From: a virus
Virus record (IMG/VR): IMGVR_UViG_3300028374_000012
Span: 5,696-69,695 of that record
Length of the DNA: 64,000 bases
Strand: one strand, 5' to 3'
A program made the position numbers and the translations under genes. The notes beneath the pieces are model-generated. The model worked only from the letters and a program-made list of their open reading frames with translations. It made no database searches and was not told the DNA's origin. Positions 1 through 33,413 of the stretch are shown piece by piece (the stretch's first letter is position 1; each line of letters starts with the position of its first letter).

Positions 1-2631
1 TTCCAGAGAGTGATCTCCTCAGGAAAAAGCTGTGTCCCAATCAGAGTTATTATATCCTGTGATTGCTGTAGTCCCGCTGAAAAAATTATTAACTTCCGTC
101 TGAGAATATTGAGCTACGTTTAGTACAGCGGATAACCCGACGTCTGATTTATCCAGTGTGACAATGCCTGTTTTGCCAGCTACTGAATCAACTAAATTAA
201 CTTCTGCACCAGCTTCTATGCCTGCAAGCTTACTTTGTTCACTATCAGTATAAGCATTAGTATTTAGATTAGACTCATAAGCTGTTTTAATTTCTGAAGG
301 AGATTGGTCTTCGGTTGCATTTCATTCAATGCTAATTAATTTGTTTTTTTCGGTAAGAGTATAGTCTTCCGAAGACAACCCTTTTCCTGCTACTTTATCT
401 ACTTTATCATCTAAAGCGGATACTAAATCAGCTTGGTCAGTTATAGTTCCTAGTATCTCTCCCCAAGAAGTTCCTGTTCCTACGCTGAATTGTGTTCAAT
501 CAGAGCCAGTATACAGATGTATAGAATCATTTCCAACTATTTCAATAACATAAGCATCGCCAGCCGATGGGTTAGCAGGAAGATCCCCTATTGAGGCAAG
601 GCGGTTAATTACATTAATACCCTGTATAGCTAAACCTGCAGCAGTTTCTGCATCAATCTTAAATACTTCTGCTTGATCTCTGTATCCCATTGATTGGGTA
701 GCATACCCGCTAGATCATAAAGAAGAGGTTTCAGCATTATCAGCATAAGTAGAGGCAGCGTTTCTATAACCTAGGGCACTTGTCATATATTGTTCTGAGA
801 GGTCCCTAGCCGCCTCGGATTCATTCTTCGCAGTTACGGACCCGTCTCTTGCTAATTCAGAAGCTGTCTGGGCAGATTCGGAAGCCTGGCGGGCAATGAT
901 AGCCAGGTCTTTCTCTGCTGTAGCTAATAAAGCAGAGTCTTCGGACTTGGCTGCATGATGAAGGGAAGAATATTTACCGGTTACAACTTCTACATCTTCG
1001 AGCTCTTCTGCTCAATCTTGTGACAAATCCCGGGCGGTTTCAGATTGATTCTTTGCCGTTACTGATCCATCTCTTGCCAACTCGGAAGCGGACTGTGCCG
1101 ACTGAGAATCGTCTCTTGCAGTTTCAGATGCTAGTTGAGCTGTTTGGGAAGCATCTCTTGCAGTTTCAGATGCTAGTCGAGCTGCAACTGCTCCGTCCTC
1201 CGCTGTTTCAGATTGTATTCGAGAAGTATTAGCTACAGAGGCAAACGAAGACGCGGCGGACTCACTATTAGAAGCGTTGGTCTCGCTGGTTGCTGCATTT
1301 GATTCACTGGTGGCTGCATTTGATTCAGAGGTAGAGGCGGCGCCGGCAGATGAAGCAGCATTAGTTTCACTTAGAGCTGCTGCACTTGCAGACTCCTGAG
1401 CTTTAGCTGAATGGTGTAAAGCAGAGTATTTACCAGCTTCTACTTCACTGTCTTCAAGTTCTTCTGCTCATTTCTCAGCTTTATACTGGCTTAATAAGGC
1501 TGCTGTTTCGCTATCCACTGCATTAGATTCAGATAAAGAAGCTGCACTTGCAGATGATGCAGCGTTAGTCTTACTAATTGCGGCAGCTGTTTCGCTTGTT
1601 GCGGCGGCTGATTCAGATAAAGAAGCTGCACTTGCAGATGATGCAGCGTTAGACTCACTGGTTGCAGCATTAGACTCGCTGGTTGCTGCGGCTAATTCAC
1701 TTGCTGCTGCGGCTGTTTCGCTTAGAGCCGCTGCATTAGCAGAAGCGTCTGCAGCTGTTTCTGAAGCAGATGCTTCGGATGCACTGAGGGCAGAAGCTGT
1801 TTCACTTGCTGCTGCATTAGACTCGCTGGTTGCTGCCTCGGAAGCTTTAGTAGAAGAAATGTCTGCAGAGTCTTGGGAGTCTTGTGCACTTTGTTCTGAT
1901 TGTGCTGCAAAATGTAAAGCCGAGAACTGGCCGGGCTCTACCTCAATTCCTTCGGGGTTGTTGGCTCATTCAGATGCTTTAGTAACAAATGATTCCAAAG
2001 AAGAAATATCTCTGATATCCCCGGCCAGTGTTATATCTGTTACATACCCTGTTGAACTTAGATAGACCTCTATATTAGGCTTGTCTCCTTCAGCTCCGGG
2101 ACCTACCCAATCAGCAACTTTTAAAACTCTACGTTCCCCATCAGCTACAATAGCTAAATGAGGAGAAAATCCACTAATTCCAATAGGCCCCGTAGGCCCA
2201 CGGTAGTCCATGCCTTCTCCCTGATCTGGAAAAGATGAGCCTCCTCAGGTGTATAATTGTCCATCTTCTTCTACAAAATAGGCCTGGCCGCTATCTTCAA
2301 TATCAAGGTCAGCTGGAAGATCCTGGTATGTATTAACATTCCCTTGTATAACTACAGATCCGCCTAATTGGCCTAATTTTTCATATTCATCACCTGTCCA
2401 CGTCCATAAGTAATTTTGAATAACATAAGAGTCTCCTACTTGCCCGGTACCCGGCAGCTCTGATGAATCGGCAAGCCAGCCTATAACCTTTATACCCGAG
2501 GCTGAAGATTCAAATTGTAAAAAAGAACCTACCTCCGCTTCAAGCTCTTTTCCCAGCCTCATTACTAGCTTAGTATCTCTTTTAAAAAACTTTAAGTTTT
2601 TTAAGATTTCTCTTAAATCAATTGTATTCAT
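1..2631 (-). CDS. Tail fibre / receptor-binding fibre protein (partial, runs off left edge; TGA=Trp)
   Basis: One frame from ATG 2631 to the window edge, interrupted only by 8 TGA codons (2245, 1966, 1468, 1012, 715, 496, 322, 19). Ser/Ala/Glu coiled-coil repeats (SESNAAT), three W-A-E/N...VE.G.(Y/F)S.LH modules, LP...G..Y.....Y.W.G repeats and WDTAFSWGDH are typical of phage fibres. Confidence 0.8.
1526..1652. repeat. Exact 43-bp direct repeat (1526-1568 and 1610-1652) within the fibre coiled-coil
   Basis: gattcagataaagaagctgcacttgcagatgatgcagcgttag occurs twice, in frame, among shorter degenerate repeats. Confidence 0.9.
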
Positions 2632-2637
2632 AACTTG

Positions 2638-3555
2638 CTAGTATATAACGTATCTTGTCTGGTTGTAAATTACAAATCGCTGTCCTGGCTGTAAATCTTT
2701 TAAACTCACGGATGCTACAAAAGGTTCTATAGAATAATCATATATTTCATCATCAATGTGGACTAGACTTAGTTGGCCTTGCTGCTCTATAGGGGCTCCA
2801 AGCATCTCTAATGTTCTAGTCCTTTGTACTGAATATCGTTTACTTTTTTCAGGATCTACAATAATGTCTCCAGGCTCCAAAGGTGGTCTATTTAGCATAG
2901 ATAAAACAATATCGCTTGGATAAAATTCACCCCAAATAGATATGTCCTTGGCACGAGGATTTGGGGTTACCATGCCGGCCATGGGTATGGGCTTATAAAA
3001 GCCATTTCTCCACCCAGTTCCATAAGGATCTTCTGCGGACGTTTCTCCTGTTGGGGTCATTAATATTGGGTCCCAAGTATCCGGGTCGCGCTCTCCTCAA
3101 CTTCTTTTCTTTAATAACATAAAAAGCCTACCGGACTTTTTTAGGCCAAGAACTTTATGATTGTATATCTTTAACCATTTACGGTTTGGGATCCGGTCAT
3201 TAAGATAAGTATAATCGCTTATAATAAAATTTTCAGGGCTAGCAACTTCTTTGACTTTTACTTTGTAATACCAAGTACGTGTTCCGTGTTGTAAGCCTAG
3301 TAAACTAGAGTCAGTATAAGTATATTGGGTTGGGTCAAAATTTTCCTCAATCAGTTCATACTCGTCTAAATCATCCTCATTGGGAGCTTGGCTTCTATAG
3401 ATATCGATAGCTAATAAAGTCAAATCAAAGCCTGGAAGCTCTGTTTCATCTGTAGAAAACTCTCAATGTAAATCAATTATAGAGGATGCAAATCGGGTAA
3501 CCTTTAAACTTTTTAAGGTTACATTAGTGCCCGCTATTGTTAAAGTAGTACTCAC
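2638..3555 (-). CDS. Putative neck / head-closure protein with N-terminal Fn3-like region (TGA=Trp)
   Basis: GTG at 3555 has GGAGG 8 nt upstream. Joins ORFs 3097-3423 and 2638-3060 through TGA at 3463 and 3097. Motifs KKRSWGE..YGTGW..GFY.P and PPLEPGDII; lies between capsid and tail genes. Confidence 0.6.
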
Positions 3556-4036: not shown

Positions 4037-6379
4037 TTAGTCAAACTTATTATAGAATTCATCTCTTGGTATTTTCGCTATATAAATACCCGCTGTAAAA
4101 TTCCAATCACCTTCATAATGAATATCGTCTCTGTACCCATAGAACAGGTACATAAACCCATCTTTCTCTATAACGCTAAATGGTGAAGTTTGTCCGACCT
4201 CTACACAATCTTTACATGTTGCGTTTGGAACTTCACCTGGAGTTTTTCTTTCATGAAATTCAGGGGGGATTATACTTTTATTATCTAATAATTGGACTTT
4301 ACCGTCTTTAAATATCCCAGGAACCAAGATTGTTTCCCCAGTAAAACGAAATCTTCTGCTAAATGGGTAGTCTTTATTCCCCGCTTCGCGCTCTATAATC
4401 CTACCTTTTTCTTTTTTGTAAAGCTTTATTACTATTCTATTTTTATCGATAAGTATAGAAGAATAAAAGTCTGCAATTCCATTTTCATTTTCATTTGTCC
4501 ATCCGGCTGTTTCTTTTGTATCATACCACTTTGGATCCGCAATTATCTTTCCATCGCTCCAGGTCTTGCCCCCATCTTTAGAGGTATGTGAAGAAATCCC
4601 TCTTCTATCTTTAAGGGTTTCATCTATAACCCTCTCATCTAACCAGTCAGGTGCATATTTTTTAAAGGCTTCTTTAATTTGTGGAATATCTTTAACATTA
4701 GGGTACTTAGGCATATCATCGCCTCATCCCCCTACTTCTTTAGATCTATTACCCCTGACCCGACCAGTAGCATAAATAGTACCATTTATTTCATTGAGTA
4801 AAAGAGCTCCATCTAATTTTCAGTCATAGGATCCTTTAAAAGTTAGCTTTGTAAGGTCATCGGAAACATCAAAAAACTTAATTTGATCCCCAGACTCGCT
4901 TTTGAGTTTTTCTCTATAGAAGAGCACTTCCCCATTAGGTCGTTGATAGTAATGTCCACGTTCTTGTATACTAGATTTTCGTGGCCCGGACCAGCTTTCT
5001 AAATCACTGCTTTCGAAATAAACCATTTCAGAAGACTTTCGGTCCCAGCCGTATGATCTTCATTTTCCTTTATAATTAATAACTCCATTTACAGCTGGGG
5101 TGTAAACTCCATTCTTGTTATCTTCATGAATAGTTATCTTCTCTACCTTATCTGTAGGTTCTGGCTCAGGATCAGATTTCTCAACCGTAACTATTGGAGT
5201 GGCAAAACTGCCTGCGGTCATTTGTATTACATACTTCTTAGAGACGTCTACCCCTCCTATAATATATTCCCCACTATCTTTTTCTACAGGGGCCGGAGTA
5301 TACTTGGTGTTTTCAATCATGTCAATAATTGATATTCAGGATTTTCCTTCTTTTTTAAACCGTAAGTCTACGAACTCCTCTGTGTTAGCAGTTCATGTAA
5401 CTTTAATCTTATTACCATCCCAGTAAGCCCTTAAATTCCCAATAGGGTTTGGTTCGGGTTCTATCACATCATTGTTTGTTATAGCATCAATCCAAGCTTT
5501 TTCTAACTCGGGCATTTCATTTAATCCTACCCAATTAGTAGATGTTTCTCATTCCCAAAATAATATTCCTACAACGTCACTGCGTTCTCGCGCATATCTC
5601 ATATACCATTCAGGTGATTCTAATGGGGGCTTTCTCCAAGGATTCCCACCTGCACCTTCTTTTGTATAAAATGTTTGAGCTGTGATAACAATTTGAGGAT
5701 TATCAATTGTTTCTCGTACATTTTTATATACAGCATCAGCATGGTCTCTGAATTCTTCATAGTTATTAATCTGAATATAACCTTCAGGAGCGTCTTTATC
5801 GAAAAATGGATACAGATTATTACCAACGTGTTTTAAATTTTTAGGAAACTGATTTCTCAACAGCATCCCCCTTGTAAATGTAAAGGTATATGGAAGATCT
5901 CCATATTGTTTGCCCGCTTCATCTACAATATTATACATCTGCTGTTCTGATAGTTTTGTTGGCTCATCTCTAAGAATAACAAACTTTATATTTTCGTGAC
6001 CTACAGTATTAAACCCATTTACATACCAACCAATTCTTTTTCTATGGTCATATTCACTTTCATCGGGTTCAAATCCACCAATACTTGGAATAACTTTTAA
6101 TCCACTATCAACAACTGGTTTCATAAGTTTTACGTTAGCAGAGCGAGATTGGCCGGCTGTGCATAAAGCTTTTAGTGGGTTGTCATCAGGTACTTCTTCA
6201 GAATACCAAAATCCAAAAAATAAATCCGATGTTGGTTCTGGTATTGGTTCGGGGTCGGGTGTTGGTTCTGGTATTGGTTCTGGTTCCCCAGTCATCTTAT
6301 ATAACTCTTCAACTTTTGCTGAAGCGTTGTTCAAGTTATATTCTAATTCGTCAAGTAATTCTTTTATTGTTTTGCTCAT
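4037..6379 (-). CDS. Modular glycoside-hydrolase-like protein, 780 aa (TIM-barrel-like + Fn3-like + Asp-box beta-propeller; TGA=Trp)
   Basis: Four track ORFs lie in one frame, joined by 6 TGAs (5549, 5393, 5336, 5060, 4820, 4724). Pro-Glu linkers separate domains. ILRDEP resembles a GH-A acid/base motif; SSDLESW and SKDGGKTW are Asp-boxes. Confidence 0.6.
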
Positions 6380-7170: not shown

Positions 7171-8073
7171 TTATGACAGTGTCAATTTAGCCACGCCATT
7201 AGCATTTGCTATGATCATTCCTACAGTTTCATATGCACTGAAAGAAATGAGATTTCGTTTTTTCTCAATATCAAACTTAGTGTCGTTAAGAACACAAAAT
7301 TCGCCCATGAAGTGCGGAGCAGCAAAAGCGTAGATTTTGTTGTCTAACAAGTCAGTTTTGTTAGTAACAATAAGTTTACGGCCATACAAAGTACCATGTC
7401 CATATCCTTTTACAGCAATTTCGCCTTTGAGGGCATCGTCACCGAAAGTACCGTTCGTGTTGTTATCAACAACAAGGCGGTTAAACATAGTGTTACTCAT
7501 AAGAAGAGTTTCACTTTGTAGACGTTTTCCGTCGATTTTGTCAAAAAGCTCTCGGAAAGAAGCTTCAGGTACAGCATTGTTTGTGTAACTGCCAGTAACC
7601 GCGTTTCCGCTAACTGTAATAGCTGCATCTACGTGGCCAATAAAGGCGGTATCTTCAATTTCTTGAATATCCAATACTGAGTTCTGCTCAATGATTTGAG
7701 TCAGGGGCATGCGGTATGCCAAAAGCTCTTCTTCTACTTTCTGAAATTCTTCAGATGAAATAGAGTGGAACGGAAGTTCTACTCGTTTCCCTTCAATGTA
7801 GTTTGTTGAAGGCTTGTCTCTGAAGTTAACAACCATCGCTTTGGAATCTGGTTCCAATTCGATCATTTTAATTACGCCGTCATGATTTACCGAAGGCTGA
7901 AGATCAGCTTGGGTAACATATTGAGGGGGTAAAATTTGTCTCGCAAAAGATACCTCACGAAGTCGTCTACGTACAAACGCAGCGCCCTCCATGGCTACTT
8001 TTTGCATCCCTTCTTCCGTATCGAGTCGTTTCAGAAAAAGGTCATTTACTGTTCTTGCGTCTAATGATTCCAT
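7171..8073 (-). CDS. Major capsid protein (HK97-like fold)
   Basis: 300 aa, GGAGG upstream, last gene of the protease-scaffold-decoration operon, followed by a terminator. Pattern SFARQILPP...G.LYG.K.IVT...YETVGM.I.N..GVA. Confidence 0.8.
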   Translation of the reverse strand: MESLDARTVNDLFLKRLDTEEGMQKVAMEGAAFVRRRLREVSFARQILPPQYVTQADLQPSVNHDGVIKMIELEPDSKAMVVNFRDKPSTNYIEGKRVELPFHSISSEEFQKVEEELLAYRMPLTQIIEQNSVLDIQEIEDTAFIGHVDAAITVSGNAVTGSYTNNAVPEASFRELFDKIDGKRLQSETLLMSNTMFNRLVVDNNTNGTFGDDALKGEIAVKGYGHGTLYGRKLIVTNKTDLLDNKIYAFAAPHFMGEFCVLNDTKFDIEKKRNLISFSAYETVGMIIANANGVAKLTLS

Positions 8074-10012: not shown

Positions 10013-13000
10013 TTATCTGTTAAAATTTTTGCTTTTATGGAAATCTTTAAATGCGTTGGTCTTTGGCTGTTTTAGTCCTTTCCTTATTAAGGATTTACTA
10101 ATACTGGACCCGGCCCTACCTAAGGCTAACCCACCGACCAGTGCGGTTACAAATGGATTTTTTCTTACAGCGTTTTCAATATTATCTAAAGGCTCACCAC
10201 GTCTTGCTTTTACTTCAGCTTTGGCAGAAGTATAATAGGATAGTGGTGCGGCTATAGCAAAACCAGCAGGGTAAGCTGCGGTTTTTTCATTTGTGTCGTT
10301 TATAGTATTTTTCTGCATCTTTGTTATTCCTAACGCTAGTCCACCACTAATTACTGGTGCCACCCATGGGTGGGTTTTTATAAACTTAGCAAAATGTGAC
10401 GCGTTTGCAGTATTACCAAAAATTTGAGCGTATCCTGCATACATTGTACCAAGTAACGTAAAGGGTACAACAGGGTTTTTAACCCCGCTATCATTCGGCA
10501 TAACTGTTGGCTCATCAAAAAATACCTTTTTAAGAAAACTTCGTTCTCTTTGTTGTGGTGTTTCTTCAATAGGCTCATCAAAATTAGCCTGCTTAGTAAT
10601 TCTATTAATAATTAATGGCTTTGTCAAGGAAATATCTGAAATTTCTTCTTTTATTTCATTGGCAATTTTTTCATTAGCTCTGTCAAGGGACACATTTTCA
10701 AGCTCTTCAGGCATTATAGTTGGATCTACAGAAAACACATGTCCAGTTTTTTCAAGCTCTTGTGCTAATTCATATTGGCCCGCTTTATACAAAGCAAGCT
10801 TTTGAAAATCATTTCTTGTTGGTAAAATTCTTAATCCTAAAAAAGTTGATAAAACATCGTTGATAGGATATTCTGCTAATTTTTTTAGAGTCTCATCTTT
10901 TATAGGTGCCTGGGAATTTAGTATAATATTTCCCGGATCTTCAACAATTCAATCTATATCGCCTTGAATCTTTTTATTGATCTGGCCGTGCTTATCTTCG
11001 GCAACCTTTTCAATTCCAAAAACTTTCATAAAGGATGAGACGGGGTCAGCTGGAATTGTTACCAATGATATATCAAAAAAGGTAGGCTTGGTATTTATTG
11101 CATATACTTTCCGGCCATCACTTAAAACCTGATTCATTTGGTTTTTTAAATAAGAAGAATACTGTGCACGGGTCTTTGCTTTTTTCTTTGTTATAGAACA
11201 GTTGTGTACAATATATTCATTAGCTTGGTATGTTTCTGTTTTTGATACCTGTAAATTTTTAACTTTTAATTTTTTGTCAATTCTTTTATTTTCTATAATT
11301 GGTATTAAAACATAATTGTCATATATAAAAATTCTAGAAGACTTCTTTGGTTTTTTTTGAATATTTATTTTGTGACAATAATCCTGCAATGAATATGAAT
11401 CATATTTAGAAATAAAACCAATATAAGTGTACATATTTTTAGACCAGGTTGTGTCTATTGTTCTTTTATGTAAAGAACATCCAATACCAATTGTAAAGCA
11501 TAATCTACGTAAATCTCTAGATAGATACTCTGAAACAGTACAAAACCTAGAAGATTGCACCTTTGAATCAAATGAACCATCTCCATCCAGATAAGAGCCT
11601 AATAAAGATTTCAAAAATTCATCATTATGATCCAAAATTCTGGGGTGTATAAATTTACCGTTTGAATATTCTCCAAAATTTTCTAAAATTATATTAGCCA
11701 AATCCGATGAATAAGCCCTGCAAGATATTTCATATTTAGCTTCATTAATATAATATTTAAAAGTAGTCCCAATTTTTAAAGCACACTTTTTCAAATCTTG
11801 TACTAAATGATCTTCGTCTAATGAAAAAGAAAAGGACATACCAGAATACTTACCATTTCTTTCTTTTATAAAAGAACCTTCTGCTAACCAATATCCGAAA
11901 AATTTGGCGTGCTCTTTTGTATAAATATTCTTTCTATTTACGCTTCTATAAAATGCTAAGTAATCGCCGACTTTTAATTTTTCTGCTTCTTTAAATTCTA
12001 ATTCCGCTTCTGGTAAAGAAGTGAAATAAATTTTAGAATTATTCCCTTTGTTGCTTTCCTTAAATTTATTAGAATCTATTGATAAAAAGGGGTGTTCCTT
12101 TGTTACTTTTAATTCTTTGAAATCTCCAAATAAGGATAGTTGGTGATAAGAATCTACTTCCCTAATATTATCTTTGATTACTTCAGGTTTTTGGTGGTAC
12201 TCATCATAAACTTTATCACCTATATGAACATCTTTTAATTTTTTATAACCAGTTTCTGTATAAATATCAGTATCTAAACTAAAACAAACATCGTATGGAA
12301 CTCTGCAATTATGTACGGCGTACCCCGCTTCAACTAAATAAGACTGGTCATCTTCTACTTCAAAATTAAAGACTGCTCCTTTAAATCCAATTTCTTCGAT
12401 CTCGGAAATTGTATAATACCCGGCGGTTTTATTTTTAGGAAACTTAGGAATTATTAATTTATCTCCTTTTTTAACATCTTGTGCCTTAAGCCAAACTTCT
12501 TCTTTTTTACGAATTACTCGTATTGGGTGTTCTTCGGTACAGGTTAGATCTGGCATAGTTTTTCCAGGTACCTTAAAAGTTAAAAGGCGGCCATTATATA
12601 TTCTTGGTTCTAGAGAGATAACTTTTTTAACATTGCCTAAATGTGTTCTAACCTCGTCACCTATCTTAATATCTTCAATATTTTTTAAAGTTCCATTATC
12701 TAATACAACCTTTGTGCCGGCTGTAAAACATCCCATACTTGTTTTAATTACCTGTCCTTCTGAAATTTTTCTAAGTGTGTTAACAACATCGGGGTGATCT
12801 GCTTTTAGTTTAACAACAATTTCAACCCTCTTCATATTATCATTATAATGAGAGAAGATAACACGGCCCATTGATTTTTTAGGATCCTTGTTAACATGGT
12901 GCTTATAAACATACCCACCGTCTTGAAAAGTGTGATGGCGTGCTTTTAAAGCTTCTTCGGGAAAGTAATCGCCATTCTTGTTGGAGCCATAATATTCCCC

Positions 13001-23382: not shown

Positions 23383-24238
23383 CTAATTTTTTTAAATTAA
23401 GTTTTGACTCAACCAAATCAAGATCAATGTCCTCTACTCGCTCCGGAAGTTCAAAATTTGAAGCTGCTTCAAAGATGTCTCTATATACAGAATAAGATAA
23501 CATTTTATAATTAACGTTGGCCCCGGTTAGTCTGGGAATTCCCCAATCCAGCGAGTATCTGTGGTGTCGCTCTATATAAGCGGTATAAGCAATGTCGACA
23601 AGTTGCTTCCACGCAACTTGCGCCTTTCTCTTTAAATAGGTTGAAATTTGAGAGCTGTAGTTTGGATTTGTGATTCGGCCACCCTCATAATTTTTATATT
23701 GTCGCTTTGCTTCTTTAAATCTTGAAACAATTTTATTAAATTCTTTTACTTTATTTCTAGCTACAACAAGCTCACCAAAATATTTTTGCTCTGGGGTTAC
23801 CGGCGGTTTAGAAATGTTTGGCTGGATTAACCATTCATCTGCTTTTAAATCATACACACCAAAGTCTCTTTCATACAAACCTCTTTTTGTATGTTTATTC
23901 CAAGGTACTACATAATACTGGTATGTTCTGCTACTTAGGGGTGAACGGAAATGTTTATGGGATATATCTCCCACAAGTTCACTTTTCATGCTACCGGTTC
24001 ACTCAGGTTTTGGGTTATCTAAATATACTGTAATATCAACATCGCTGGTATCATTATAACGTAAACCAGTTAATGAGCCTCCTAGTATAATCATAGGAAT
24101 ATCATCTAGCGGAATCTTCTTACTTATATTTTCCAGAAGCTCTAGCCGAATATCAGAGTGAAGTTTATTGTATTGATTAAATAAATCCGGGGCTAGCCTG
24201 TCTTTTGCTTTGTCTAATATGCCTGCTAATTTTTTCAT
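23369..24238 (-). CDS. Pol-beta-superfamily nucleotidyltransferase (289 aa; TGA=Trp)
   Basis: GGSLTG.RY...SDVDI motif; TGA at 23999 joins two in-frame ORFs; begins MKKLA. Confidence 0.7.
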
Positions 24239-24239
24239 T

Positions 24240-25382
24240 TTAATATTGAGAGTAAGGGTACTGGTTTATACTTCTATTTCTTTTATTTTTCGAATGATTA
24301 TAATACATTGCACCACCTCCAGCTAAAGTAGCGCCGCCGGCCAGCATATACATTTTATTTTTTGTGCTTAGTCCTTTTTCAACATTTTCACTAACTTCGG
24401 GTGTTTTGGGAATACGCTTACCTGCTGCAATATCCATATCTTTTTGTATGGTTTTTACCTTTTTAAAAGCATAAGGATTTTTTGTGTTTAACAGTGCTTG
24501 CTGTTGCTTTAACTGTTGCCCAACTACACTTTGTAATTTTTTAGAATTAGGTAAGTATTTTAGTGCTACTGATTGCCAAGAAGAATACTTTCGCATTTTA
24601 TCTGTTTGCTTTTTTAACTCTTTTACTACTTCTTTTAATTTTTGACCTTCATCTAAATTTTTAAAGTCTGATTTTTCGGCCTTCTTTGTTCTGTATTTTT
24701 TACCAGCATCATACTGAGCTCCAGCCGAAATAGCACTGATGCCCGCTGCAGTGGTACCACCAACAAGACCAGAAACAACCCCGACGCCTTCTTCAAAAGT
24801 TTCAGAAATTGATTTTTTATTTTTAGATTCAAAAGCCTTTACTAATTTTTCATTAGCAGCGTACTCGTCAGCTAAACCTTTCCAAGTTTTAGCTTTATCG
24901 GTATTAATTTTTAGATTTTTTAAACCAGTTGTAAGATCATCTATGGACCTTACATTTTTTAAATTCTTTAATCCTGACAACGACTCCTGGATACCATCCA
25001 TAGAAACTTTGGACTTTTCTAAGAATTTTTTTTGTTTTAAGGCGATAGGAGAAGCTTCGCCTACTCTTTTTAAGGCTTTATAATTATACCATGGAGAAAT
25101 TGCCCTCATGGATGATTTTCCAGCCCTGCCTAAAGATTCGCCTAATAAAGAAGTGGGATTTCTTCTTCTTGCTAGTGCAGCTCCTGCGCGTAGAGCTAGG
25201 CCCGTTGCAACAGTTCCTGTTAAATAACCACCAAGCGCTCCACCTGCTGAAGCAATTGCTTTATTCTTGGAATCTGCTTTAGTATTTTTATTTTTATGAG
25301 CCTGATCAATAGTTCATTTCCCGGTTGGCTCTACTCCGGCCAGAAATGTTTTGTATGCTGGTGTTTCTTTTTCTTTTGACAT
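24240..25382 (-). CDS. Basic virion-cargo-like protein with three Gly-rich helices (380 aa; TGA=Trp)
   Basis: ATG 25382, TGA at 25314, continuous with track ORF 24240-25109. Confidence 0.6.
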
Positions 25383-25390: not shown

Positions 25391-25419
25391 ATTATATGAA
25401 ATTAAGAGGACTCTTTCAA
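25391..25419 (-). promoter_or_regulatory. Sigma70-like promoter
   Basis: TTGAAA-17 bp-TATAAT, 8 nt before ATG 25382. Confidence 0.7.
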
Positions 25420-26781
25420 GGCCTGCAGGAATTGATTATTTAATTTTTGTTTTTTGTCTGCGATCTGATATAAATATTCATCAGTAGATCTTTTTCGTTT
25501 GGCTCCTAAGAACTTTCTAAACTTGGACGGTTCCGGAGTAGTACTTATATATTTTTTAACGCGCACATTTCTTTCATTTTCTGGTAAGTGAGCATGAGAA
25601 TTAAGTCTGGCCGCCCTACCTATTGTTTGCTTTATGCGTGCTGTATTCCAATGAGGTTCAGTTATCTGTACAAATTTGGTGCCTTTTAAGTCCAGGCCCT
25701 CACTACCGGCCCCACTAAGAAGCAGGTGTCTTACCTTGCCCTGGTTATAATCTTTTATTATTTTTGTTCTATCCTTTTTGCTTGTTTCTCCTGAAAAAGT
25801 TCTATAAGGTATTTTTGAATTTTTTAATTGATTGTCTATAGAGGAAATACCAGAGCCCAGATAATTAGAATATGTTATACCCTTGTAATTAGGATCCTTT
25901 TTATAATTTCTTTTAATATCACTTACAATCTTTTTAACCTTAGGGCTAACATTATTTCCCCGAACATCATAAGATGATGGGGTATTAGAAATCTGCCGAG
26001 TCGCATTTAAAAATGCATTCATCTGGGGACTTTCGGCTTTACTTGCCGGAATGCCTTTTCTTATTTTATAAGCAAGAGAAGGAGACTTTTTTAAAGCTGT
26101 ATTATAAACTTCAAGTTGGCGCTTGCCCATTGGGACTTCTATAATTTCTTTTTTAATTTTAGGAAATGAGTCTGAGTTTGACTTCTGATAATCTACCTTT
26201 CCTTTTAAGTGTCGCTTTAATACATGAAGATTTTTTGCATGATATTCGGTTCCTGGTTTTACTCCTTTTATGTATTTGGCTCATAAACCTGGATTAACTT
26301 TTTTCTCTTGTATAAAGAACTCGTTAAACTTTTTACTATTCCTGGGAATATCGATATCCAGCCCTCTTAGCAGGGGGATAAGTTCTGAGGGGTGATTACG
26401 TATAGGAGTTCCTGTAAGTAGGATCTGTTTATCAGCTTTAAACTTATCCGGGTAACGACTTCGTTGGCTTGAAAGTCGACCAGTGCGATGAGCTTCATCA
26501 TATATTAAAAGAGGGTAACGTTTTCCTTTTCTAGCATTCGGTTTTGTATAAGATGAGTAATCAACTTTTGATTTAATCTTATGTTTTTTAGCCTCTTCTT
26601 CAAAGTTTCCTTTAAGTGATGCCGGGCCAATTACTTTAGCAGGGGCTTTAAACTTTTCTGCAATTGATAAAGCTGCAAGGGTCTTACCCGTCCCCAACCC
26701 CCAATATAAAAGTTGTTTATCATTCTTTTCTAGTTTTTTTAAAACCCGCTTTTGATGGGGTTGTAGCTCTGTTTTAGACAT
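25402..26781 (-). CDS. SNF2-like superfamily 2 helicase (459 aa; TGA=Trp)
   Basis: LQPHQ, GLGTGKT, DEAH, LTGTP, AGSEGLDL, EPHWN, QTIGRAAR; N and C halves joined through TGA at 26281. Confidence 0.88.
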
Positions 26782-26890: not shown

Positions 26891-28162
26891 TTATCCGGCA
26901 TTGTTTTCCTTTTCTTTTTTCTTAAAGTAATCTAAAGCTGCCTTTCTTTTTAAGTTTACTCGAATAACTGGAATTTGGTCTAGTATTCCAATAGAAGCTT
27001 TCCACCTATGGTGTCCGTCTATTATATAACCATCTTTAGATATCCAGATTGGTTTAAAATTTTCCGGGCTTTCTTGTAAATTCTTTTTAATGTTTTTTAC
27101 CTTATCAGAATTAAAGTAATCCTGTGAAGGCGTTAAGCTTTTTGGGCTTGTATTAAATCTTTCCTTTTTCAGATTTACCTCTTTAGGGTGAGGAAGCTGA
27201 GGCATACTTTTTCTTTTTCGGGTTAGTTTAGCTTTTTTAATTAAGCTGCTTCCTGCCCCTGCAGCGGCGGATGAGACTCCACTTAAGAGAGCTATAGGTA
27301 GGTGCTTTTTAGATTTTGCCATCATACTTAAGAAAGCTCCAGGGGCAAAACCAGCTGAGCCTCATATTAATCCATTTTTCAAGGCTACTTTGCTTTTTTG
27401 CTTCATTGCTCTTTTATGCATTCAATCCAAATCTCTTTCTTGGGCCCAGGTTTTAACTTCTGAAAATGCTTGAGGATCCTCTGAGGTTCTTTTAGCTAAT
27501 GAGTGCCAGTCAGATAAAATTTCTTTACGTACGTTTGGCGAAAGTTTTTCAAGAGATACTGGGTCATTTTTTCGTTTATATGCATGATGATCTCGACTAC
27601 CTACATGCCGATCTGCAGCTTCTCTGAAACGCTGGGCTATCTCCGGGGATACTGCTTCTCGGGACCCTAGAGCACGCACCCCTTCAGGGCCAAACCAATA
27701 GTCACGGTAAGGAGTTCAGTTGTTGGGCTTAAACTTGTCTCAGTCATGAGCAAGTAACTGAAGACGCGGAGCATCAAGCTGCCGGCCGCTTTGATAAACA
27801 TCTTTTTTATGTTTAACTAAATATTTTAGTTGCTCCCAATCTGCCTTCCTGTCTTCCAGAAAAGAAGCTTGTTTTATAACACCAGCATTTTTTAATTTTA
27901 TTCACTCGCCTAATCTATCCAGTTTTTCATTTCTGCTCCTAGCTCTATAAGCGCCTAACCCGGCTCCTACTGCTGCACCGGCTGTTCCTCAAGCTCCAAT
28001 AGATTTCAATAAGGGCTTGCCCTTGATTCCACTAAGACCTTCACCAATACCGGTAAGTGCTCCCACAGTAGTTCCAGAGACGGCTGCTTGCTCGGCCATA
28101 CTCTTGATAGTGTTTTTTCTTTTATATTTACGAATTACTTTATCTATTTCTTTATTAGTCAT
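26891..28162 (-). CDS. Polyprotein: Gly-zipper / DUF5662 HD-like domain / Gly-zipper / ParB-Srx domain (423 aa; TGA=Trp)
   Basis: Single frame with 6 TGAs. HK..V...LLAHD(W)DKF...H....HH...EILSDW; KPIWISKDGYIIDGHHRW; modules bounded by IKQA, HKRA, IKKA. Confidence 0.72.
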
Positions 28163-28831: not shown

Positions 28832-30697
28832 CTAACGTTTTAGAGTTACTTTCTTTTTATTAAGTTCTCGTAGTAAATTTCGAGTTGCCCCAAAGTTAAA
28901 GCTATTTTTTTCAAAATCCGCTTTTTTATTTAACATTGCTAATAATTCTTCTTTTGATTTACCTTCAACCTTGTCTTTATAAGGCCTAATTAATTGTTTT
29001 TTACCAATAGGTAACCCTAGTATCTTTTTCCTTTTTCTTTCTGAATAATATTTAAGAGTGTTAGAAAGAGTATCTTTATCCAAATTTTTTGTTTTCTTTT
29101 TAATTGCTACATAACCTTCCATTCCCTTTTCAGGGTCAAAGGACTTTAGTTTTTTTCGAACTTCGCCAATGATTCCTTTACTAACTTCTAACTTAGTATG
29201 ACCTCCTTTTGCTACTTCATAAAGGACAGGAGTCTTATCTTTATAAGGAGATAGATACATTAAAGCCGATTGCGGAGAACGTCTAGTTCAGCTGTGGTGT
29301 TGGGTTACATATTTTTTATCTTTTGATAAAGAACTGTCGCTTAAATCAAATGCTATTTTTTCAAATTTATCCATTCTTATTCTTTTAAATATTGGTGCTT
29401 GGTGCATTCCAGAGGTGTGCCGGCGCTGACTTTTAAACTCGGCCCACTCTCCTATATACTTTTCGGGGTTCTGATATGCGTCTCTTCTAAGTTGGTCGTC
29501 GAGTCCGGAACCTACTTTTAATTTAATATTACTATTTTCCGGCTTAACTATAAAACCGCCAATTCCATTATTATGATATTTGCTATCAGGGGCGGCTGGG
29601 AATACTCCTACAATTTCTGCGTCCCAATCGAGCCGTTTTTTGCTCTTACGCGGCGTCGGACTATCTAAGTCATACACCACTATGCCTTCGTCGGTTAGCG
29701 GGTGTCTCTGTTCAAATATGGCCTTCTGGAGCTCTTCTTTTTCCTCTTTTGTTCTTGCAAAAGGAGGAACCCCAATTGTATTTAATTTTCTTTTAATTTC
29801 ATCAAGCATTGGAAGCTTTTCGGAGAAAGGCAGATCTTCTACATTTTTTCCTTTCCATTTTACAACATCGAACGCAGCTACGCTAAGCGGCCTGCTTTCT
29901 TTGCTTTGGATTTCCCGGGATTTCCAAACATTAGAATTTAGTAGCCGGGCCGTTTGTTCACCGGGGTGGCCGGGAGTATAAAGCTCTCCTCTTAATATTG
30001 TTTTCTTAAATTCTTCTGGTATTACTTCTTTATAAGCTTCGGTTCGATACGTGTGATCTATCCTTTCGGGGCCTCTTCGTGATTTGCGATATGAGAATAT
30101 ATCAGGTGTTTTACCACCTCTTAATACTATAAGATTATGGGCCCCATCAAGTTTAGGAGCCCAAACCTCTTTATCCTGTCTGTGGGCCGGGTCTAGTTTT
30201 TCCAGCTTTACTGTTTTATAACTTTTTTTAGAGTCTGGAACATCCTGGAATACTTTAGTTTCTTCAGTTGGGGTGTAATTATAAAAAAGAAAGTTATCTG
30301 TCCCGGGCTTTCTAAGAAGAATATATCTTTGTGTGTCTCGGCCGGTATATCTATTAAATTCTACTTTGTTTGGAGTGGCTTTTAAAACTTCTACAGGTTC
30401 TTGGGTTAAAGACTTAACAGTTCCTTTACCATAGCCCTTTTCGATTGTTCCAGAAAAGCCCATGTAATCACGGGTATGAAGATCGACATTTATGGCCGTT
30501 GTCTTCTGGCCGGGCTCGGGTAGTTTCTTTGAAGCTCAAGAGTATGCTTTTTGGGAGCCTTTTGGGGATAAGCGGATATCTAGATGCCTTCCAGCTCGCT
30601 CAGCGAGGTGCTCTTGGATATTAAGATCCCATTGCGCATTCTGTGCGGTAGGGATTGTTCCTTTATATTTTCTTTTTGGGATTCCGGGTGCGTCCAT
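28832..30697 (-). CDS. LigD-type 3'-phosphoesterase + ATP-dependent DNA ligase + C-terminal module (621 aa; TGA=Trp)
   Basis: QEH.A.R...H.DIRL...S(W)A...H...Y..F.G.I..GYG.G.V (PE domain). Ligase motifs KLDG, LRGELY, FDVV, EGIVV, KVGSG, APIFKRIR. TGA at 30536 and 29288. Confidence 0.85.
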
Positions 30698-31210: not shown

Positions 31211-31349
31211 AGCTTAAGATTTTTTTATTTTTTTCTAGTAATTTTTTAAGAGCCTTTTGCCCAGCGGGGCCCATTCCTACAAAGGGGACATGAGCTTTTA
31301 AATTACCCCAGCCGCTTTGATCGGCCCGATAAGCACTCTTTCTGGTCAT
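31209..31349 (-). CDS. Possible small ORF (46 aa)
   Basis: ATG immediately follows the TAG of the glycosyltransferase gene, same frame. Confidence 0.3.
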   Translation of the reverse strand: MTRKSAYRADQSGWGNLKAHVPFVGMGPAGQKALKKLLEKNKKILS

Positions 31350-33413
31350 CTACTTGCCACTATTTTTAAATGCATTATATGCTGCTACTCCACCCCAACC
31401 TGCTGCTGCTCCATAGAATGGTAATTTTAGGTATTTTGGCATTTTGTATAATCTGTTAGTTGTGACTGAGGTATCTGAGATTATCTTTTTAGCAGCGTTC
31501 TCTCTTATTACTTTTGAAGCATCATTTGCTTTAGATTTATAATTATCCAGATTATCAAGAACTTCAGATAATGAACTTTTAAGAGAATCTTTCTCATCTA
31601 AAATAACTGTTGGAGTTCCTTGCACTTTTGAGAAATGTTTTGCATTTCCTACCATATGCGGTGCATAAGAATCTTTTACGCGGTTTGTAACAACCGGCAA
31701 AACAGGCTTTCCTTTAGCAATTGCTTCGGTTGTACTTATCCCATGTGGCCGGGCCAAGACAACATCTGCTGAGTCGATAACTTTTTCATAATTTTTTTCG
31801 AATCCTTGGGCAATAACTCCTTTATATTTAGACATGTTTTTACGAACATTCTCATTTTTACCACTGATTCCAATAACTTGTATGTCCTTTCTTCCAGACT
31901 CGGCCAGCTGACGTGTTACCTCGTCAACGTCGAACCCAGTAGTACCGCCTGTTACTGCTATTAATTTCTTTTTAGGATCAAGCTTTACTTTCTTTCCGGT
32001 GGCGTTACCTTTATTATCAAACATTTGGATTTCTTTCAGCTTAGCTCTTCTCTTTTTAGGGGTTTTCATGAATTTAGAAGAGATGGGCACAGAAGGTATA
32101 TCCGTCATTGGGATATTTACATGTGAAAATATCCCTTTTGCTTCGGCAGAAGGCGTATAAATTCTGCTTATGGATTTTTTATCTTTTCCGTCTAAACCAA
32201 AAGATGAATACCAAAATCCTTTTGATCCGGGTGTATCAACACCATAATCAGTCATTACCATTTCTGGCTTGATACCCATAGGTTTAATAAAATTAGTAGC
32301 ATCGGGTTGTGTAACAATAACTCGCCCGGCTCCTTTTAATTCTTTTTGTAATTTTCTTTTTTGGGTGTTACGCATAGGGCCCATTCCTAAAACGAACCCT
32401 AGATAATTTCTATACCTTTTAGGGCTGGGGGTAGAGGGCGCAGTCATCGTGTCATAGCGAGACTTATTGAATTTAGAAAGATATTTGTTTCTGAACCGAG
32501 AATAATCAGTAAAGTTAATAGCTTTAGCCGACCCTTTGCCATTTAATTTCTCGTGCTCTTCTACTAAAGACTTTGCTACAGCAGCGTGTCCGCCGCCTCC
32601 CGGGTTATGTTTGCCGCCTTCAGTTACAACAACCAGCTTATTACTTTTTGGGTCAATATTGTTTTGGAATTGTTGTAAATATTTTTCTCGGATAGTTGGC
32701 GTTGCCAGGGATCCGGCCGCTACCGCTGCAGGGAATGCTACAGGCTTATCTTTTTTCTTATTTTCTTTTGCTAATTTTCTAAACCCGTCGGCTGCTAAAG
32801 CTGTTCCCCCTAGCCCTGCAGCTCCCATTGTTGCAACAATGGCTGGGTAAGTTTTATTTCCTGGTGTATTTTTTTCTGCTCTATATAATTTTAACATGGC
32901 TCTACTTTCTGGTTTGGTAACATTTTCTAATCCTTTTTCTTTTACTTCTTTTAAAAATACGTCTAATGTTTTTTGGAGTCGTTTTAATCTTCTAGGAGTG
33001 CTATTACGCTTCATGGCTCGGTTCCCTATAACCTCTGATCCCCAAAATTTTAAAACATCATTTGGCTTTCCTGCAAACTCGGTGTAATGAGTAGACATAA
33101 AGGGGTTCTTTTTAGGAGCTCTTATAATTGTATTTCCAAAAACTTTTTCTGAAATTGTTGCTTTTCCTAGAGATGGGTCTAATTTCTTTTTATGGTATCT
33201 AATAGCTGATTTTCCGGGCGCAAACTTATTTAACATGTTGTCTGAAAACTTAAGATAATTTTTTACTCAAGAAGCGTGATCACTTTTTGATAACATTGGG
33301 TTCTTAAGTATTGGCGCGCCTCGATATGCTACCGCTCCGCCTAAAACTGCTAGTGGTAGTCCTATTGCTATTTTTGCTTTTTGTCGTGCTGAGTTTTGCT
33401 TATCAGTTCCCAT
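31350..33413 (-). CDS. Polyprotein with GT-B / GT28-like (MGDG synthase / UgtP-like) glycosyltransferase (687 aa; TGA=Trp)
   Basis: GGGGH..VA.SL, VTGGTTG, GF..N......ADVV..RP.G.STTEA...GKP; ATG 33413, TGA 33267; flanking Gly-rich helices; FRKLA junction. Confidence 0.78.

What the first reader, a model, noticed from the sequence alone, without database searches (positions are those of the whole stretch)
1..33413. Two genetic codes split by strand: TGA=Trp in late genes, TGA=stop in early genes
Seen: 35 in-frame TGAs in 13 minus-strand genes. Several sit where the family has a conserved Trp: intein VLTKKG*K, LigD-PE S*A, photolyase YIQK*LPE, DUF5662 HD*DKF, fibre WDTAFS*GDH. After read-through, the minus-strand genes end in TAA/TAG. 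The long plus-strand genes (primase, rIIA, rIIB, uvsE) use only TGG, and five + genes end in TGA (36674, 40281, 46465, 60731, and 63182 as an ATGA stop/start overlap). Known: late-gene stop-codon reassignment occurs in some crAss-like and Lak-type phages. Inference: a standard-code host and a timed code switch that gates terminase, protease and fibre synthesis. No suppressor tRNA or release factor is visible in this window.
Basis: partly seen in the sequence, partly recalled or inferred. Interest (0 to 1): 0.88.

Follow-up and report, generated by a model that had tools for sequence, protein, structure and literature searches.

The report
Lake phage reads TGA as tryptophan
A fragment of a large lake-water phage writes its virion-building half in a code where the stop codon TGA means tryptophan, while its DNA-replication half keeps the standard code; this layout is already known from gut phages, but relatives of this phage carry an unusual suppressor tRNA that may explain how the trick works.

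Summary
The window holds exactly 35 in-frame TGAs in 13 minus-strand genes. Reading TGA as sense raises left-arm coding density from 0.837 to 0.972.

TGA means Trp. In 29 standard-code relatives, W fills 51 of 123 cells at TGA columns against a 1.1% background.

The TGAs are not errors. All 13 TGA codons in 22400-30700 lie unchanged in contigs from four other runs.

The right arm has 0 in-frame TGA against 102 TGG, and five of its genes end in TGA (Fisher 1.9e-12).

Block-wise TGA-to-Trp recoding of late genes is already published (Borges preprint; Mgcod). This is therefore a new member of a known kind.

The contig is about 38% of a roughly 200 kb genome. This explains why no suppressor tRNA is seen.

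TGA-recoded relatives carry a Trp-derived tRNA(UCA) between holin and endolysin. It has a second arm whose loop copies the Trp anticodon loop. I found no description of this tRNA in print.

The timing of a code switch and the host's code remain inferences.

The parts
1..2631 (-). 3' part of a 1,939-aa tail-fibre-like gene that runs beyond the window start. It has 8 in-frame TGAs in the window and 13 in the whole gene.
2638..3555 (-). Conserved virion-module gene with 2 in-frame TGAs (codons 31 and 153). Both columns are W in standard-code relatives.
   Evidence: W 10 of 11 and 10 of 18 cells
4037..6379 (-). 780-aa gene of unknown family with 6 in-frame TGAs. The public code-11 predictions of this gene are fragments cut at those TGAs.
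   Evidence: P0003, P0039, P0021, P0022; W commonest at 3 of 6 columns
7171..8073 (-). Major capsid protein. It has no TGA and no TGG (no Trp at all). Used as the marker for the clade.
   Evidence: phrog_2522, 3e-15
10013..13180 (-). Head-module protein with two inteins (Hint and LAGLIDADG) and 1 in-frame TGA at codon 744, in a variable column.
14814..17303 (-). Large terminase with an intein and 3 in-frame TGAs. Codon 698 is W in 22 of 24 standard-code relatives, codon 167 is W in 3 of 3, and codon 90 is F in 19 of 19.
19087..19950 (-). 287-aa gene of unknown function with 1 in-frame TGA.
22438..23382 (-). Photolyase-type FAD-binding protein with 2 in-frame TGAs. They align to W/Y and F/W in solved photolyases.
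23369..25382 (-). Two genes (a nucleotidyltransferase-like gene and an unknown gene), each with 1 in-frame TGA.
25402..26781 (-). SNF2-type helicase with 1 in-frame TGA inside the SNF2 domain match.
   Evidence: PF00176 residues 91-269 span codon 167
26891..28162 (-). DUF5662-containing protein with 6 in-frame TGAs.
28832..30697 (-). LigD-phosphoesterase plus ATP-dependent ligase, with 2 in-frame TGAs. Codon 54 is W in 3 of 3 solved LigD-PE domains.
31350..33413 (-). GT28-like protein with 1 in-frame TGA (codon 49). It is the first gene of the minus-strand arm.
33414..33535 (.). Divergent intergenic junction between the two arms. The cumulative GC skew turns here.
33536..63454 (+). Right arm of 37 called genes. 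It includes a BT4734-type primase, an rIIA-like ATPase, UvdE, a PD-(D/E)XK nuclease and an AAA ATPase. It has 0 in-frame TGA and 102 TGG.
36000..36674 (+). Gene ending in TGA. The next TAA lies 22 codons on.
39913..40281 (+). Gene ending in TGA, 4 nt before the next start at 40286. The next TAA lies 15 codons on.
45485..46465 (+). UvdE UV-endonuclease gene ending in TGA, with a TAA 2 codons later.
60144..60731 (+). Gene ending in TGA, with a TAA 2 codons later.
62889..63182 (+). Gene ending in TGA as an ATGA stop/start overlap with the gene that starts at 63179.
41532..45400 (-). Two large minus-strand genes of unknown function inside the right arm, with 0 TGA and 12 TGG.

Best explanation
The window is about a third of a roughly 200 kb lake-water tailed phage.

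Its virion and packaging arm, together with some attached repair enzymes, is written so that UGA must be decoded as tryptophan. This arm covers window 1-33413 on the minus strand and continues 5.7 kb upstream.

The replication and early-type arm (33.5-64 kb) contains no in-frame UGA and is readable by an unmodified standard-code host. There UGA still works as a terminator for five genes.

Decoding of UGA most likely depends on a phage-encoded opal-suppressor tRNA derived from tRNA-Trp, encoded in the part of the genome missing from this contig. In the recoded complete relatives this tRNA sits between the holin and endolysin genes.

Shown here: the recoding itself, its meaning (Trp), its block-wise distribution, its reality as DNA, and its presence across a clade that also has standard-code members.

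Inferred: that the host uses the standard code; that the suppressor accumulates only later in infection so that UGA gates late proteins; and that this phage carries the same tRNA as its relatives.
For: 1. Coding density in the left arm is 0.837 under code 11 and 0.972 with TGA as sense. In the right arm it is 0.908 and 0.922.

2. There are 35 TGAs in 13 genes in the window and 45 in the whole left arm, against 0 in the right arm. Fisher p = 1.9e-12. TGG+TGA is 1.20 per 100 codons on the left and TGG is 1.19 on the right.

3. Pfam domains span TGAs: SNF2, FAD_binding_7, LigD_N and DUF5662.

4. Meaning of TGA. In 29 standard-code relatives, W is the commonest residue at 7 of 11 covered TGA columns and fills 51 of 123 cells, with F in 23; background W is 1.1%. 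For gene 4037-6379, W is commonest at 3 of 6 columns and fills 44 of 89 cells. LigD-PE shows W in 3 of 3 solved chains. Photolyase shows W/Y and F/W. Reciprocally, TGAs in relatives align to this phage's TGG in 39 of 66 cases.

5. The TGAs are not errors. All 13 TGA codons in 22400-30700 lie inside contig pieces of four other runs, and no listed difference falls on them. The same TGA positions recur in independent relatives, for example TerL codon 698 in 4 loci.

6. Clade context. Of 65 related loci of at least 8 kb, 28 gain at least 0.04 in coding density with TGA as sense, 36 do not, and 1 is ambiguous. The set was not dereplicated.

7. The contig is 38% complete by CheckV's estimate.

8. 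Recoded complete relatives G008, G009 and G010 each hold one tRNA with anticodon UCA. The nearest tRNA in the same genome is tRNA-Trp(CCA). The tRNA(UCA) lies between a holin (PF11351, 3e-13) and an Amidase_2 endolysin (PF01510, 2e-19). Among 23 amidase loci it is present upstream in the recoded neighbourhoods: 8 by ARAGORN plus the G010 record by Rfam. It is absent from the 11 loci that show no gain under code 4.

9. G000 has no match to that lysis cassette and no tRNA.
Against: - No suppressor tRNA, release factor or TrpRS is in the contig. The decoding machinery for this phage is therefore inferred from relatives whose capsid proteins are only 49-58% identical.

- Of the 11 TGA columns covered, 3 are variable and one is F in 19 of 19 relatives. 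In one search, 2 of 6 columns had only 3 cells each and one favoured Y.

- TGA as a true terminator in the right arm rests on five ORF ends. In two of them a TAA follows after 2 codons, so either reading gives nearly the same protein. No homologue covered the extensions.

- Two large minus-strand genes lack TGA (P = 0.012 at the left-arm rate), so strand and code do not map one to one.

- Nothing here measures timing. In relatives the tRNA lies inside a late-looking lysis cassette, which fits poorly with a tRNA that must come before late translation.

- The host is unknown. The only hint is distant primase similarity to phages of Flavobacteriia.
Confidence: 0.8

Rival explanations
1. The whole phage, and its host, use code 4 uniformly, as phages of Mycoplasmatota do. 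On this view the right arm lacks TGA by chance or by codon bias.
For: All right-arm ORFs stay open under code 4, with extensions of only 2-22 codons. Two of the five TGA 'stops' are followed by TAA after 2 codons.
Against: At the left-arm TGA share of 0.308, the chance of 0 TGAs among 102 Trp codons is 4.8e-17. The right arm holds 576 off-frame TGAs, so the trinucleotide itself is not avoided. The ATGA overlap at 63179-63182 and the 4-nt gap at 40281/40286 fit TGA as a stop. The related contig G011 shows the same TGA-free arm, with TGAs only at ORF ends. About half of the clade uses standard code.
Confidence: 0.05
2. The TGAs are assembly or sequencing errors, or the genes are decaying pseudogenes.
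For: Under code 11 the genes look fragmented. Public protein predictions of this very gene are fragments.
Against: The TGA codons are identical in contigs from four other runs. The interruptions are always TGA, never TAA or TAG, with 0 in-frame TAA/TAG. TGA columns are enriched for W. The same pattern appears in many independent relatives.
Confidence: 0.01
3. TGA encodes something other than Trp: Gly (code 25), Ser via a long-arm tRNA, or Sec/Cys.
For: ARAGORN and Rfam label the relatives' tRNA(UCA) as tRNA-Sec. Its long extra arm and G73 are also features used by SerRS (recalled knowledge, plus the passages).
Against: At TGA columns the cells are W 51, F 23, G 6 (all in one variable column), S 2 and C 2 of 123. 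For G009 and G008, W is the commonest residue at 16 of 26 and 13 of 20 columns, and S at none. A phage tRNA-Ser scores higher (50.3 bits) on the tRNA-Sec model than the tRNA(UCA) does (48.5 bits), so that label is not diagnostic. The tRNA shares its acceptor, anticodon and T arms with the phage tRNA-Trp.
Confidence: 0.04
4. Recoding is real but is not a timer. The suppressor is present throughout infection, and the TGA-free state of the right arm reflects something else, such as different origin, recent exchange, or selection against costly read-through of abundant early proteins.
For: There are no timing data. In relatives the tRNA(UCA) lies within a late-type lysis cassette rather than in an early region. 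In G009, orthologues of the TGA-free genes 41532-45400 do carry TGAs, so TGA load varies with lineage. The 'late' arm also includes repair enzymes.
Against: The sharp boundary at the divergent junction, and the same block structure in G011, G001/G002, G008 and G009, match the published early/late pattern (passages seen).
Confidence: 0.15

Closest known systems
TGA-recoded gut phages (Agate and Jade clades) of Borges et al., bioRxiv 10.1101/2021.08.26.457843 (passages read)
   Same: In-frame TGA read as Trp in structural and lysis modules. Replication genes stay in standard code. Close relatives use standard code. Standard-code hosts are inferred. A suppressor tRNA lies next to the lysis cassette. 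Few genes end in TGA.
   Different: This phage comes from lake-water and salt-lake metagenomes (labels), not from guts. No TrpRS or RF1 module was found in G000 or in four near-complete relatives. The clade's suppressor is a 95-99 nt tRNA with a second, Trp-anticodon-like arm. The preprint passages I read describe no such tRNA. They report detectable TGA suppressors in only 35% of code-4 genomes and suspect non-canonical tRNAs. Their supplementary tables could not be opened.
crAss-like phages with code blocks, and the Mgcod tool (bioRxiv 10.1101/2022.06.29.495998; only the search listing and the start of the abstract were seen)
   Same: Genomes are divided into blocks that use a reassigned opal or amber codon and blocks that use the standard code.
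   Different: A different phage lineage. The capsid protein's nearest named relatives are about 29% identical and belong to roughly 180 kb Salmonella and Vibrio phages. The genome size class is about 200 kb.
Lak megaphages and TAG-recoded crAss-like phages (code 15), as summarised in the Borges preprint; proteomic validation in PMC9523058 (listing and abstract start only)
   Same: Late-gene stop-codon reassignment with phage suppressor tRNAs.
   Different: Those phages recode TAG to Gln and some encode RF2. Here the codon is TGA, read as Trp. Relatives G009 and G010 also carry a tRNA(CUA) without clear TAG recoding.
Bacterial tRNA-Sec and the allo-tRNAs of Mukai et al. (PMC5389517; listing and abstract start only)
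   Same: UCA anticodon, a long extra arm, and G73. ARAGORN and Rfam call the tRNA 'SeC'.
   Different: The acceptor/T arrangement is 7/5 in the consensus fold. The acceptor, anticodon and T arms match the phage's own tRNA-Trp. The extra-arm loop reads N-U-C-C-A-A-N. TGA columns are Trp, not Ser, Cys or Sec.

Membership tests
Phages with block-wise TGA-to-Trp recoding of late genes (code 4 blocks plus code 11 blocks) | In-frame TGAs that, when read as sense, restore full-length conserved genes in the structural module | tested here: met
   There are 35 TGAs in 13 genes. Coding density rises from 0.837 to 0.972. Pfam domains span the TGAs.
Phages with block-wise TGA-to-Trp recoding of late genes (code 4 blocks plus code 11 blocks) | TGA positions correspond to Trp in standard-code homologues | tested here: met
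   W in 51 of 123 cells and commonest at 7 of 11 columns. W in 44 of 89 cells and commonest at 3 of 6 columns. Searches agree. 19 of the 35 window TGAs had any homologue cover.
Phages with block-wise TGA-to-Trp recoding of late genes (code 4 blocks plus code 11 blocks) | A replication/early block free of in-frame TGA (standard-code compatible) | tested here: met
   0 TGA and 102 TGG in 8,593 codons. Five genes end in TGA.
Phages with block-wise TGA-to-Trp recoding of late genes (code 4 blocks plus code 11 blocks) | Phage-encoded suppressor tRNA with anticodon UCA | tested here: inconclusive
   None in the 69.7 kb contig, but the contig is 38% complete. Present in the recoded relatives G008, G009 and G010 and in further loci.
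Phages with block-wise TGA-to-Trp recoding of late genes (code 4 blocks plus code 11 blocks) | Host uses the standard code | not testable with these tools
   The host is unknown. The only hints are the TGA-free early arm and distant primase similarity to phages of Flavobacteriia.
Phages with block-wise TGA-to-Trp recoding of late genes (code 4 blocks plus code 11 blocks) | Temporal switch: the recoded genes are expressed late | not testable with these tools
   No RNA holder was listed. Gene content alone suggests the early/late classes.
Phage of a code-4 host (uniform TGA = Trp) | TGA used as a Trp codon across all gene classes | tested here: not met
   0 of 102 Trp codons in the right arm are TGA (P = 4.8e-17 at the left-arm rate).
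Code 25 phage (TGA = Gly, hosts in Gracilibacteria or Absconditabacteria) | TGA columns are Gly in homologues | tested here: not met
   G in 6 of 123 cells, all in one variable column. G in 0 of 89 cells.
tRNA-Sec / selenoprotein decoding | TGA columns are Cys or Sec in homologues, and the tRNA is a true tRNA-Sec | tested here: not met
   C fills 2 of 123 cells. A phage tRNA-Ser outscores the tRNA(UCA) on RF01852. The tRNA aligns best to tRNA-Trp. SECIS elements and SelA/SelB were not searched for.

The most novel reading that the evidence does not exclude
The opal suppressor of this phage clade, and of many other TGA-recoded phages in IMG/VR, is a tRNA-Trp derivative with two anticodon-type arms in tandem.

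The first arm carries UCA and reads the UGA codon. The second arm sits where a long variable arm would be. It keeps a 5-bp stem and a 7-nt loop reading N-U-C-C-A-A-N, which is the Trp anticodon loop.

The proposal is that the second arm presents the CCA identity element to the host TrpRS. The host enzyme would then charge a tRNA whose real anticodon has lost C34, and the phage would need no TrpRS of its own. The missing two-thirds of this phage's genome would carry such a gene between holin and endolysin.

This would be a natural way of separating tRNA identity from decoding. It could also explain why standard tools miss or mislabel (as 'SeC') the suppressors of many code-4 phages.
Probability: 0.2. 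Interest if true: 0.85.

Novelty: new member of a known kind. Interest (0 to 1): 0.55.

Why it matters
The recoding in the window extends a phenomenon described mainly in gut phages to a clade of roughly 200 kb lake-water phages. That clade holds both standard-code and TGA-recoded members (28 and 36 of 65 loci). It is therefore a good natural series for asking how a code change starts and spreads.

There is also a practical consequence. Public code-11 gene calls for this phage are fragments, so annotation pipelines need code-aware calling here.

The larger potential lies in the relatives' suppressor tRNA. If the second arm acts as a Trp identity decoy, it answers an open question raised in the Borges preprint: how host synthetases come to charge phage suppressors, and why suppressors go undetected in most code-4 phages. 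It would also offer a design principle for orthogonal suppressor tRNAs.

Tried and rejected
- The named-phage collection gave only distant relatives: capsid about 29% identical, and primase partial.
- The search for related loci with the rIIA-like protein found nothing.
- The search for homologous proteins with the DUF5662 protein, with TGA read as X, gave only 2 hits, too few to tally.
- PHROGs named only the capsid protein among 10 proteins. Pfam gave nothing for 41532-45400.
- The promoter/terminator scan of 30500-37000 gave consensus hits only modestly above the shuffles: 28 against 17.6 for promoters and 14 against 5.1 for terminators. I draw no conclusion from it.
- No RNA holder was listed for 22400-30700.
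- A release-factor domain (PF00472) and a TrpRS/TyrRS domain (PF00579) were sought in G000, G006, G008, G009 and G010. There were 0 matches in 5 records each.
- A protein search of five further tRNA-bearing records with the DUF5662 protein found nothing. An apparent link through equal contig length was a coincidence.
- TAG recoding in G008 and G009 was considered because G009 and G010 carry a tRNA(CUA). Coding density gave no clear support.
- I tried to test read-through extensions of TGA-ended genes against G011. Only one pair aligned, and not at the C-terminus.
- Literature searches for a two-anticodon-arm or long-arm Trp opal suppressor found nothing relevant among the listings I saw. This is not proof that it is unpublished.

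Full report
WHAT THE WINDOW IS

The window is bases 5696-69695 of a single 69,695-bp virus record. IMG/VR classes the record as linear, and CheckV estimates it at 38% complete.

The major capsid protein (7171-8073) matches phrog_2522. Its nearest named relatives are about 29% identical and belong to roughly 180 kb Salmonella and Vibrio phages. A profile search of IMG/VR returned 80 related loci (45-76% capsid identity), including near-complete records of 180-210 kb. The contig is therefore about a third of a roughly 200 kb tailed phage.

Near-identical DNA is held by runs labelled lake-water and salt-lake metagenomes.

CHECKING THE OBSERVATION

Under table 11 the minus-strand half is broken into many short ORFs. 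Under table 4 these merge into long genes.

With a greedy longest-ORF rule of my own, left-arm coding density rises from 0.837 to 0.972 when TGA is sense. Right-arm density hardly changes, going from 0.908 to 0.922.

Ten more lie upstream of the window, in the rest of the fibre gene and in two further genes. All 35 left-arm genes end in TAA (27) or TAG (8).

The quoted motifs are all present. The five plus-strand genes that end in TGA are at the stated coordinates, including the ATGA overlap at 63179-63182.

The right arm has 0 in-frame TGA and 102 TGG in 8,593 codons, while holding 576 off-frame TGAs. The left arm has 45 TGA and 101 TGG in 12,154 codons (Fisher p = 1.9e-12). Trp-type codons per 100 codons are 0.83 on the left if only TGG counts and 1.20 with TGA added, against 1.19 on the right. 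TGA therefore fills the left arm's apparent tryptophan deficit almost exactly.

ARE THE TGAs REAL?

I laid contigs from four other runs on 22400-30700. All 13 TGA codons of that stretch lie inside listed pieces of at least one run: 12, 9, 7 and 4 of 13 for X2 to X5. None of the seven listed differences touches a TGA codon.

The interruptions are never TAA or TAG. The same TGA positions recur in independent relatives. Errors and pseudogenes are excluded.

WHAT DOES TGA MEAN?

I read TGA as X and asked what homologues have at those columns.

- In 29 relatives whose structural modules are open under table 11, W is the commonest residue at 7 of 11 covered columns. I dropped 4 near-duplicate loci and 3 borderline ones. 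W fills 51 of 123 cells and F fills 23, against a W background of 1.1%. One column is F in 19 of 19 relatives, and three columns are variable.
- For gene 4037-6379, an all-against-all HMMER search gave 69 hits. W is commonest at 3 of 6 TGA columns, Y at one, and two columns had only 3 cells each. W fills 44 of 89 cells.
- Solved structures show W at the LigD-PE position in 3 of 3 chains. At the two photolyase positions they show W/Y and F/W.
- In recoded relatives, their TGAs align to this phage's TGG in 39 of 66 cases, to its TGA in 9, to Y in 9 and to F in 5.
- Gly, Ser and Cys are negligible.

In total, 19 of the 35 window TGAs had any homologue cover.

WHERE THE SPLIT LIES

The split follows the two divergently oriented arms that meet at 33414-33535, where the cumulative GC skew also turns. 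It is not strictly a strand rule.

- The minus-strand genes 41532-43658 and 43739-45400 have no TGA among 12 Trp codons (P = 0.012 at the left-arm rate).
- Their orthologues carry 4 and 3 TGAs in the heavily recoded relative G009, and none in G008.
- The recoded arm is not purely structural. It also holds a photolyase-type protein, an SNF2 helicase, a LigD-like ligase, a DUF5662 protein and a GT28-like protein.
- The right arm holds a BT4734-type primase, UvdE, a PD-(D/E)XK nuclease, an AAA ATPase and an rIIA-like ATPase.

IS TGA A STOP IN THE RIGHT ARM?

The evidence is indirect. There is no internal TGA, and five ORFs have TGA as their first stop. At two junctions TGA as a stop gives a canonical arrangement: a 4-nt gap at 40281/40286 and the ATGA overlap at 63179. 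Two further ORFs have a TAA just 2 codons after the TGA.

The syntenic relative G011 shows the same pattern. Its right arm has TGAs only at ORF ends, followed by TAA or TAG within 0-8 codons. No homologue covered the extensions, so I could not test their conservation.

THE CLADE

Of 65 related loci of at least 8 kb, 28 gain at least 0.04 in coding density with TGA as sense, 36 do not, and 1 is ambiguous. The set was not dereplicated.

In the near-complete recoded relatives G008 and G009, TGA-dependent blocks alternate with standard-compatible blocks. Their TGA columns are W in standard-code relatives, being commonest at 13 of 20 and 16 of 26 columns respectively. Recoding is thus a variable trait of the lineage.

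THE MISSING MACHINERY

The contig has no tRNA. It also has no release-factor or TrpRS/TyrRS domain, and neither do four near-complete relatives.

The large relatives encode 20-27 tRNAs each in their arrays. Synteny places those arrays and the lysis cassette beyond the end of this contig.

Each recoded complete relative (G008, G009, G010) has one tRNA with anticodon UCA, lying away from the array.

- It sits between a 3-TM holin (PF11351, 3e-13) and an Amidase_2 endolysin (PF01510, 2e-19).
- I examined 23 loci that hold a homologue of that amidase. Eight have the tRNA(UCA) by ARAGORN, and the G010 record has it by Rfam. All of these show a gain under code 4.
- The 11 loci with no gain have no such tRNA.
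- Two loci are cut off at the amidase start. One (L189) was not examined separately.

AN UNUSUAL tRNA (a side finding in relatives, not in the window)

The tRNA(UCA) is 95-99 nt long. ARAGORN calls it 'SeC', and it reaches 48.5 bits on Rfam's tRNA-Sec model. A phage tRNA-Ser scores 50.3 bits on the same model, so that label only reflects the long extra arm.

In both G009 and G008, the most similar tRNA in the same genome is tRNA-Trp(CCA). The acceptor, anticodon and T arms align. The differences are C34 changed to U and an insertion of about 20 nt.

Five distinct sequences fold to a 7-bp acceptor stem, a 5-bp anticodon stem with the loop CUUCAAA, an extra arm and a 5-bp T stem. Of 25 pairs, 16 show compensatory changes. 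G73, G2-C71 and G3-C70 are invariant, and the first pair is A-U or G.U. According to the passages of a review I read, these are tryptophan identity positions: the discriminator, the anticodon and the first pair, with G73 in bacteria and the G2-C71, G3-C70 and G4-C69 pairs in B. subtilis (PMC9976931).

The extra-arm loop always contains UCCAA. I then scanned IMG/VR for the Trp-type UCA anticodon stem-loop followed by a T arm.

- 73 loci have an 18-46 nt insert, and 16 loci have a normal 3-10 nt variable region.
- Of 56 distinct long inserts, 34 contain UCCAA, against 1.4% of shuffled inserts. In 32 of those 34 the motif lies in the hairpin loop.
- The loop reads GUCCAAA (16 inserts), CUCCAAA (13), UUCCAAC (3) or a variant (2).
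- It is closed by five pairs that are formed in 28-34 of 34 sequences, with 4-6 pair types each. When the 3' partner is slid, only 6-24 of 34 pair.
- This is the shape and sequence of a tRNA-Trp anticodon arm.
- Of 37 such loci of at least 5 kb, 30 gain at least 0.04 in coding density with TGA as sense.
- The other 20 or so long inserts look like ordinary tRNA-Sec arms.
- Only loci of this clade have the amidase next to the tRNA (6 of 89 loci), so the design occurs in unrelated phages too.

I propose, as a hypothesis only, that the second arm offers the CCA identity element to the host TrpRS. Three full-text searches found no description of such a tRNA among the listings I saw. Supplementary tables were closed.

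COMPARISON WITH WHAT IS KNOWN

The Borges et al. preprint describes the following (passages read):

- TGA-to-Trp and TAG-to-Gln recoding in structural and lysis genes, with replication genes in standard code;
- very close standard-code relatives;
- few TGA stops;
- suppressor tRNAs, and in Jade phages a tRNA-TrpRS-RF1 module next to the lysis cassette;
- the idea of a mid-infection code switch.

It reports detectable TGA suppressors in only 35% of code-4 genomes and suspects non-canonical tRNAs.

The Mgcod preprint describes phage genomes divided into code blocks (listing and start of the abstract only). A 2026 survey of jumbo phages reports recoding in hallmark genes (passages).

The window is therefore a new member of a known kind, from a different habitat and lineage. 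It has no TrpRS or RF gene in sight, and relatives that carry a distinctive suppressor.

VERDICT

TGA = Trp in the left arm is well supported. TGA = stop in the right arm is likely. A standard-code host and a timed switch are reasonable inferences that remain untested.

I score interest at 0.55. The phenomenon itself is known, but the clade and its two-arm suppressor tRNA could make the question of how such suppressors get charged directly testable.

Noticed in passing
L178:1501-1597 (G009), L135:487-584 (G008), L136:461-559 (G010), L195:2797-2891, L197:2849-2947; also L204-L276: TGA-recoded relatives and many unrelated IMG/VR phages carry a 93-100 nt tRNA(UCA) derived from tRNA-Trp. It has a second arm whose 7-nt loop reads N-U-C-C-A-A-N, like the Trp anticodon loop. 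ARAGORN and Rfam label it tRNA-Sec. Long-insert forms (73 loci) outnumber canonical short forms (16 loci) for this anticodon stem.
   Followed up: partly
L178:857-2204 (G009 69150-72242): In this clade the tRNA(UCA) sits inside the lysis cassette: a 3-TM holin, a 76-aa ORF, the tRNA, and then an Amidase_2 endolysin. Standard-code relatives have the amidase without the tRNA.
   Followed up: yes
L128:7394-7470 (G009) and L130:9366-9440 (G010): Two TGA-recoded relatives also encode a normal-length tRNA with the amber anticodon CUA (called 'Pyl' by ARAGORN). Coding density gives no clear sign of TAG recoding.
   Followed up: partly
window 14814-17303 and 10013-13180: The large terminase carries one intein, and the neighbouring head-module protein carries two (Hint plus LAGLIDADG). 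Relatives align only to the flanking extein parts. Two of the three terminase TGAs lie outside the C-terminal extein.
   Followed up: no
window 19087-33413: Several proteins in the recoded arm combine an enzyme domain (photolyase-like, SNF2, DUF5662 with a ParB-like end, LigD-like, GT28-like) with Gly/Ala-rich hydrophobic or strongly basic termini. This raises the possibility that they are packaged or ejected virion proteins.
   Followed up: no
L156:2163-2547 (G012): A close capsid relative (75% identity) encodes a tmRNA next to tRNA-Lys(UUU) and tRNA-Met.
   Followed up: no
window 4037-6379: The public protein collections hold this gene only as four code-11 fragments (276, 40, 86 and 68 aa), cut at its TGAs.
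   Followed up: yes
window 21899-22511: This is the one unresolved spot in the left arm. Candidates are a 117-aa minus-strand ORF with 5 TGAs that looks non-coding and an overlapping 119-aa plus-strand ORF. Neither has a family match.
   Followed up: no
window 36674, 40281, 46465, 60731, 63182; L160 (G011) ORF ends: TGA terminators in the standard-code arm are followed by an in-frame TAA or TAG within 0-22 codons. These could be back-up stops that limit read-through once the suppressor is present. I did not test this against chance.
   Followed up: partly
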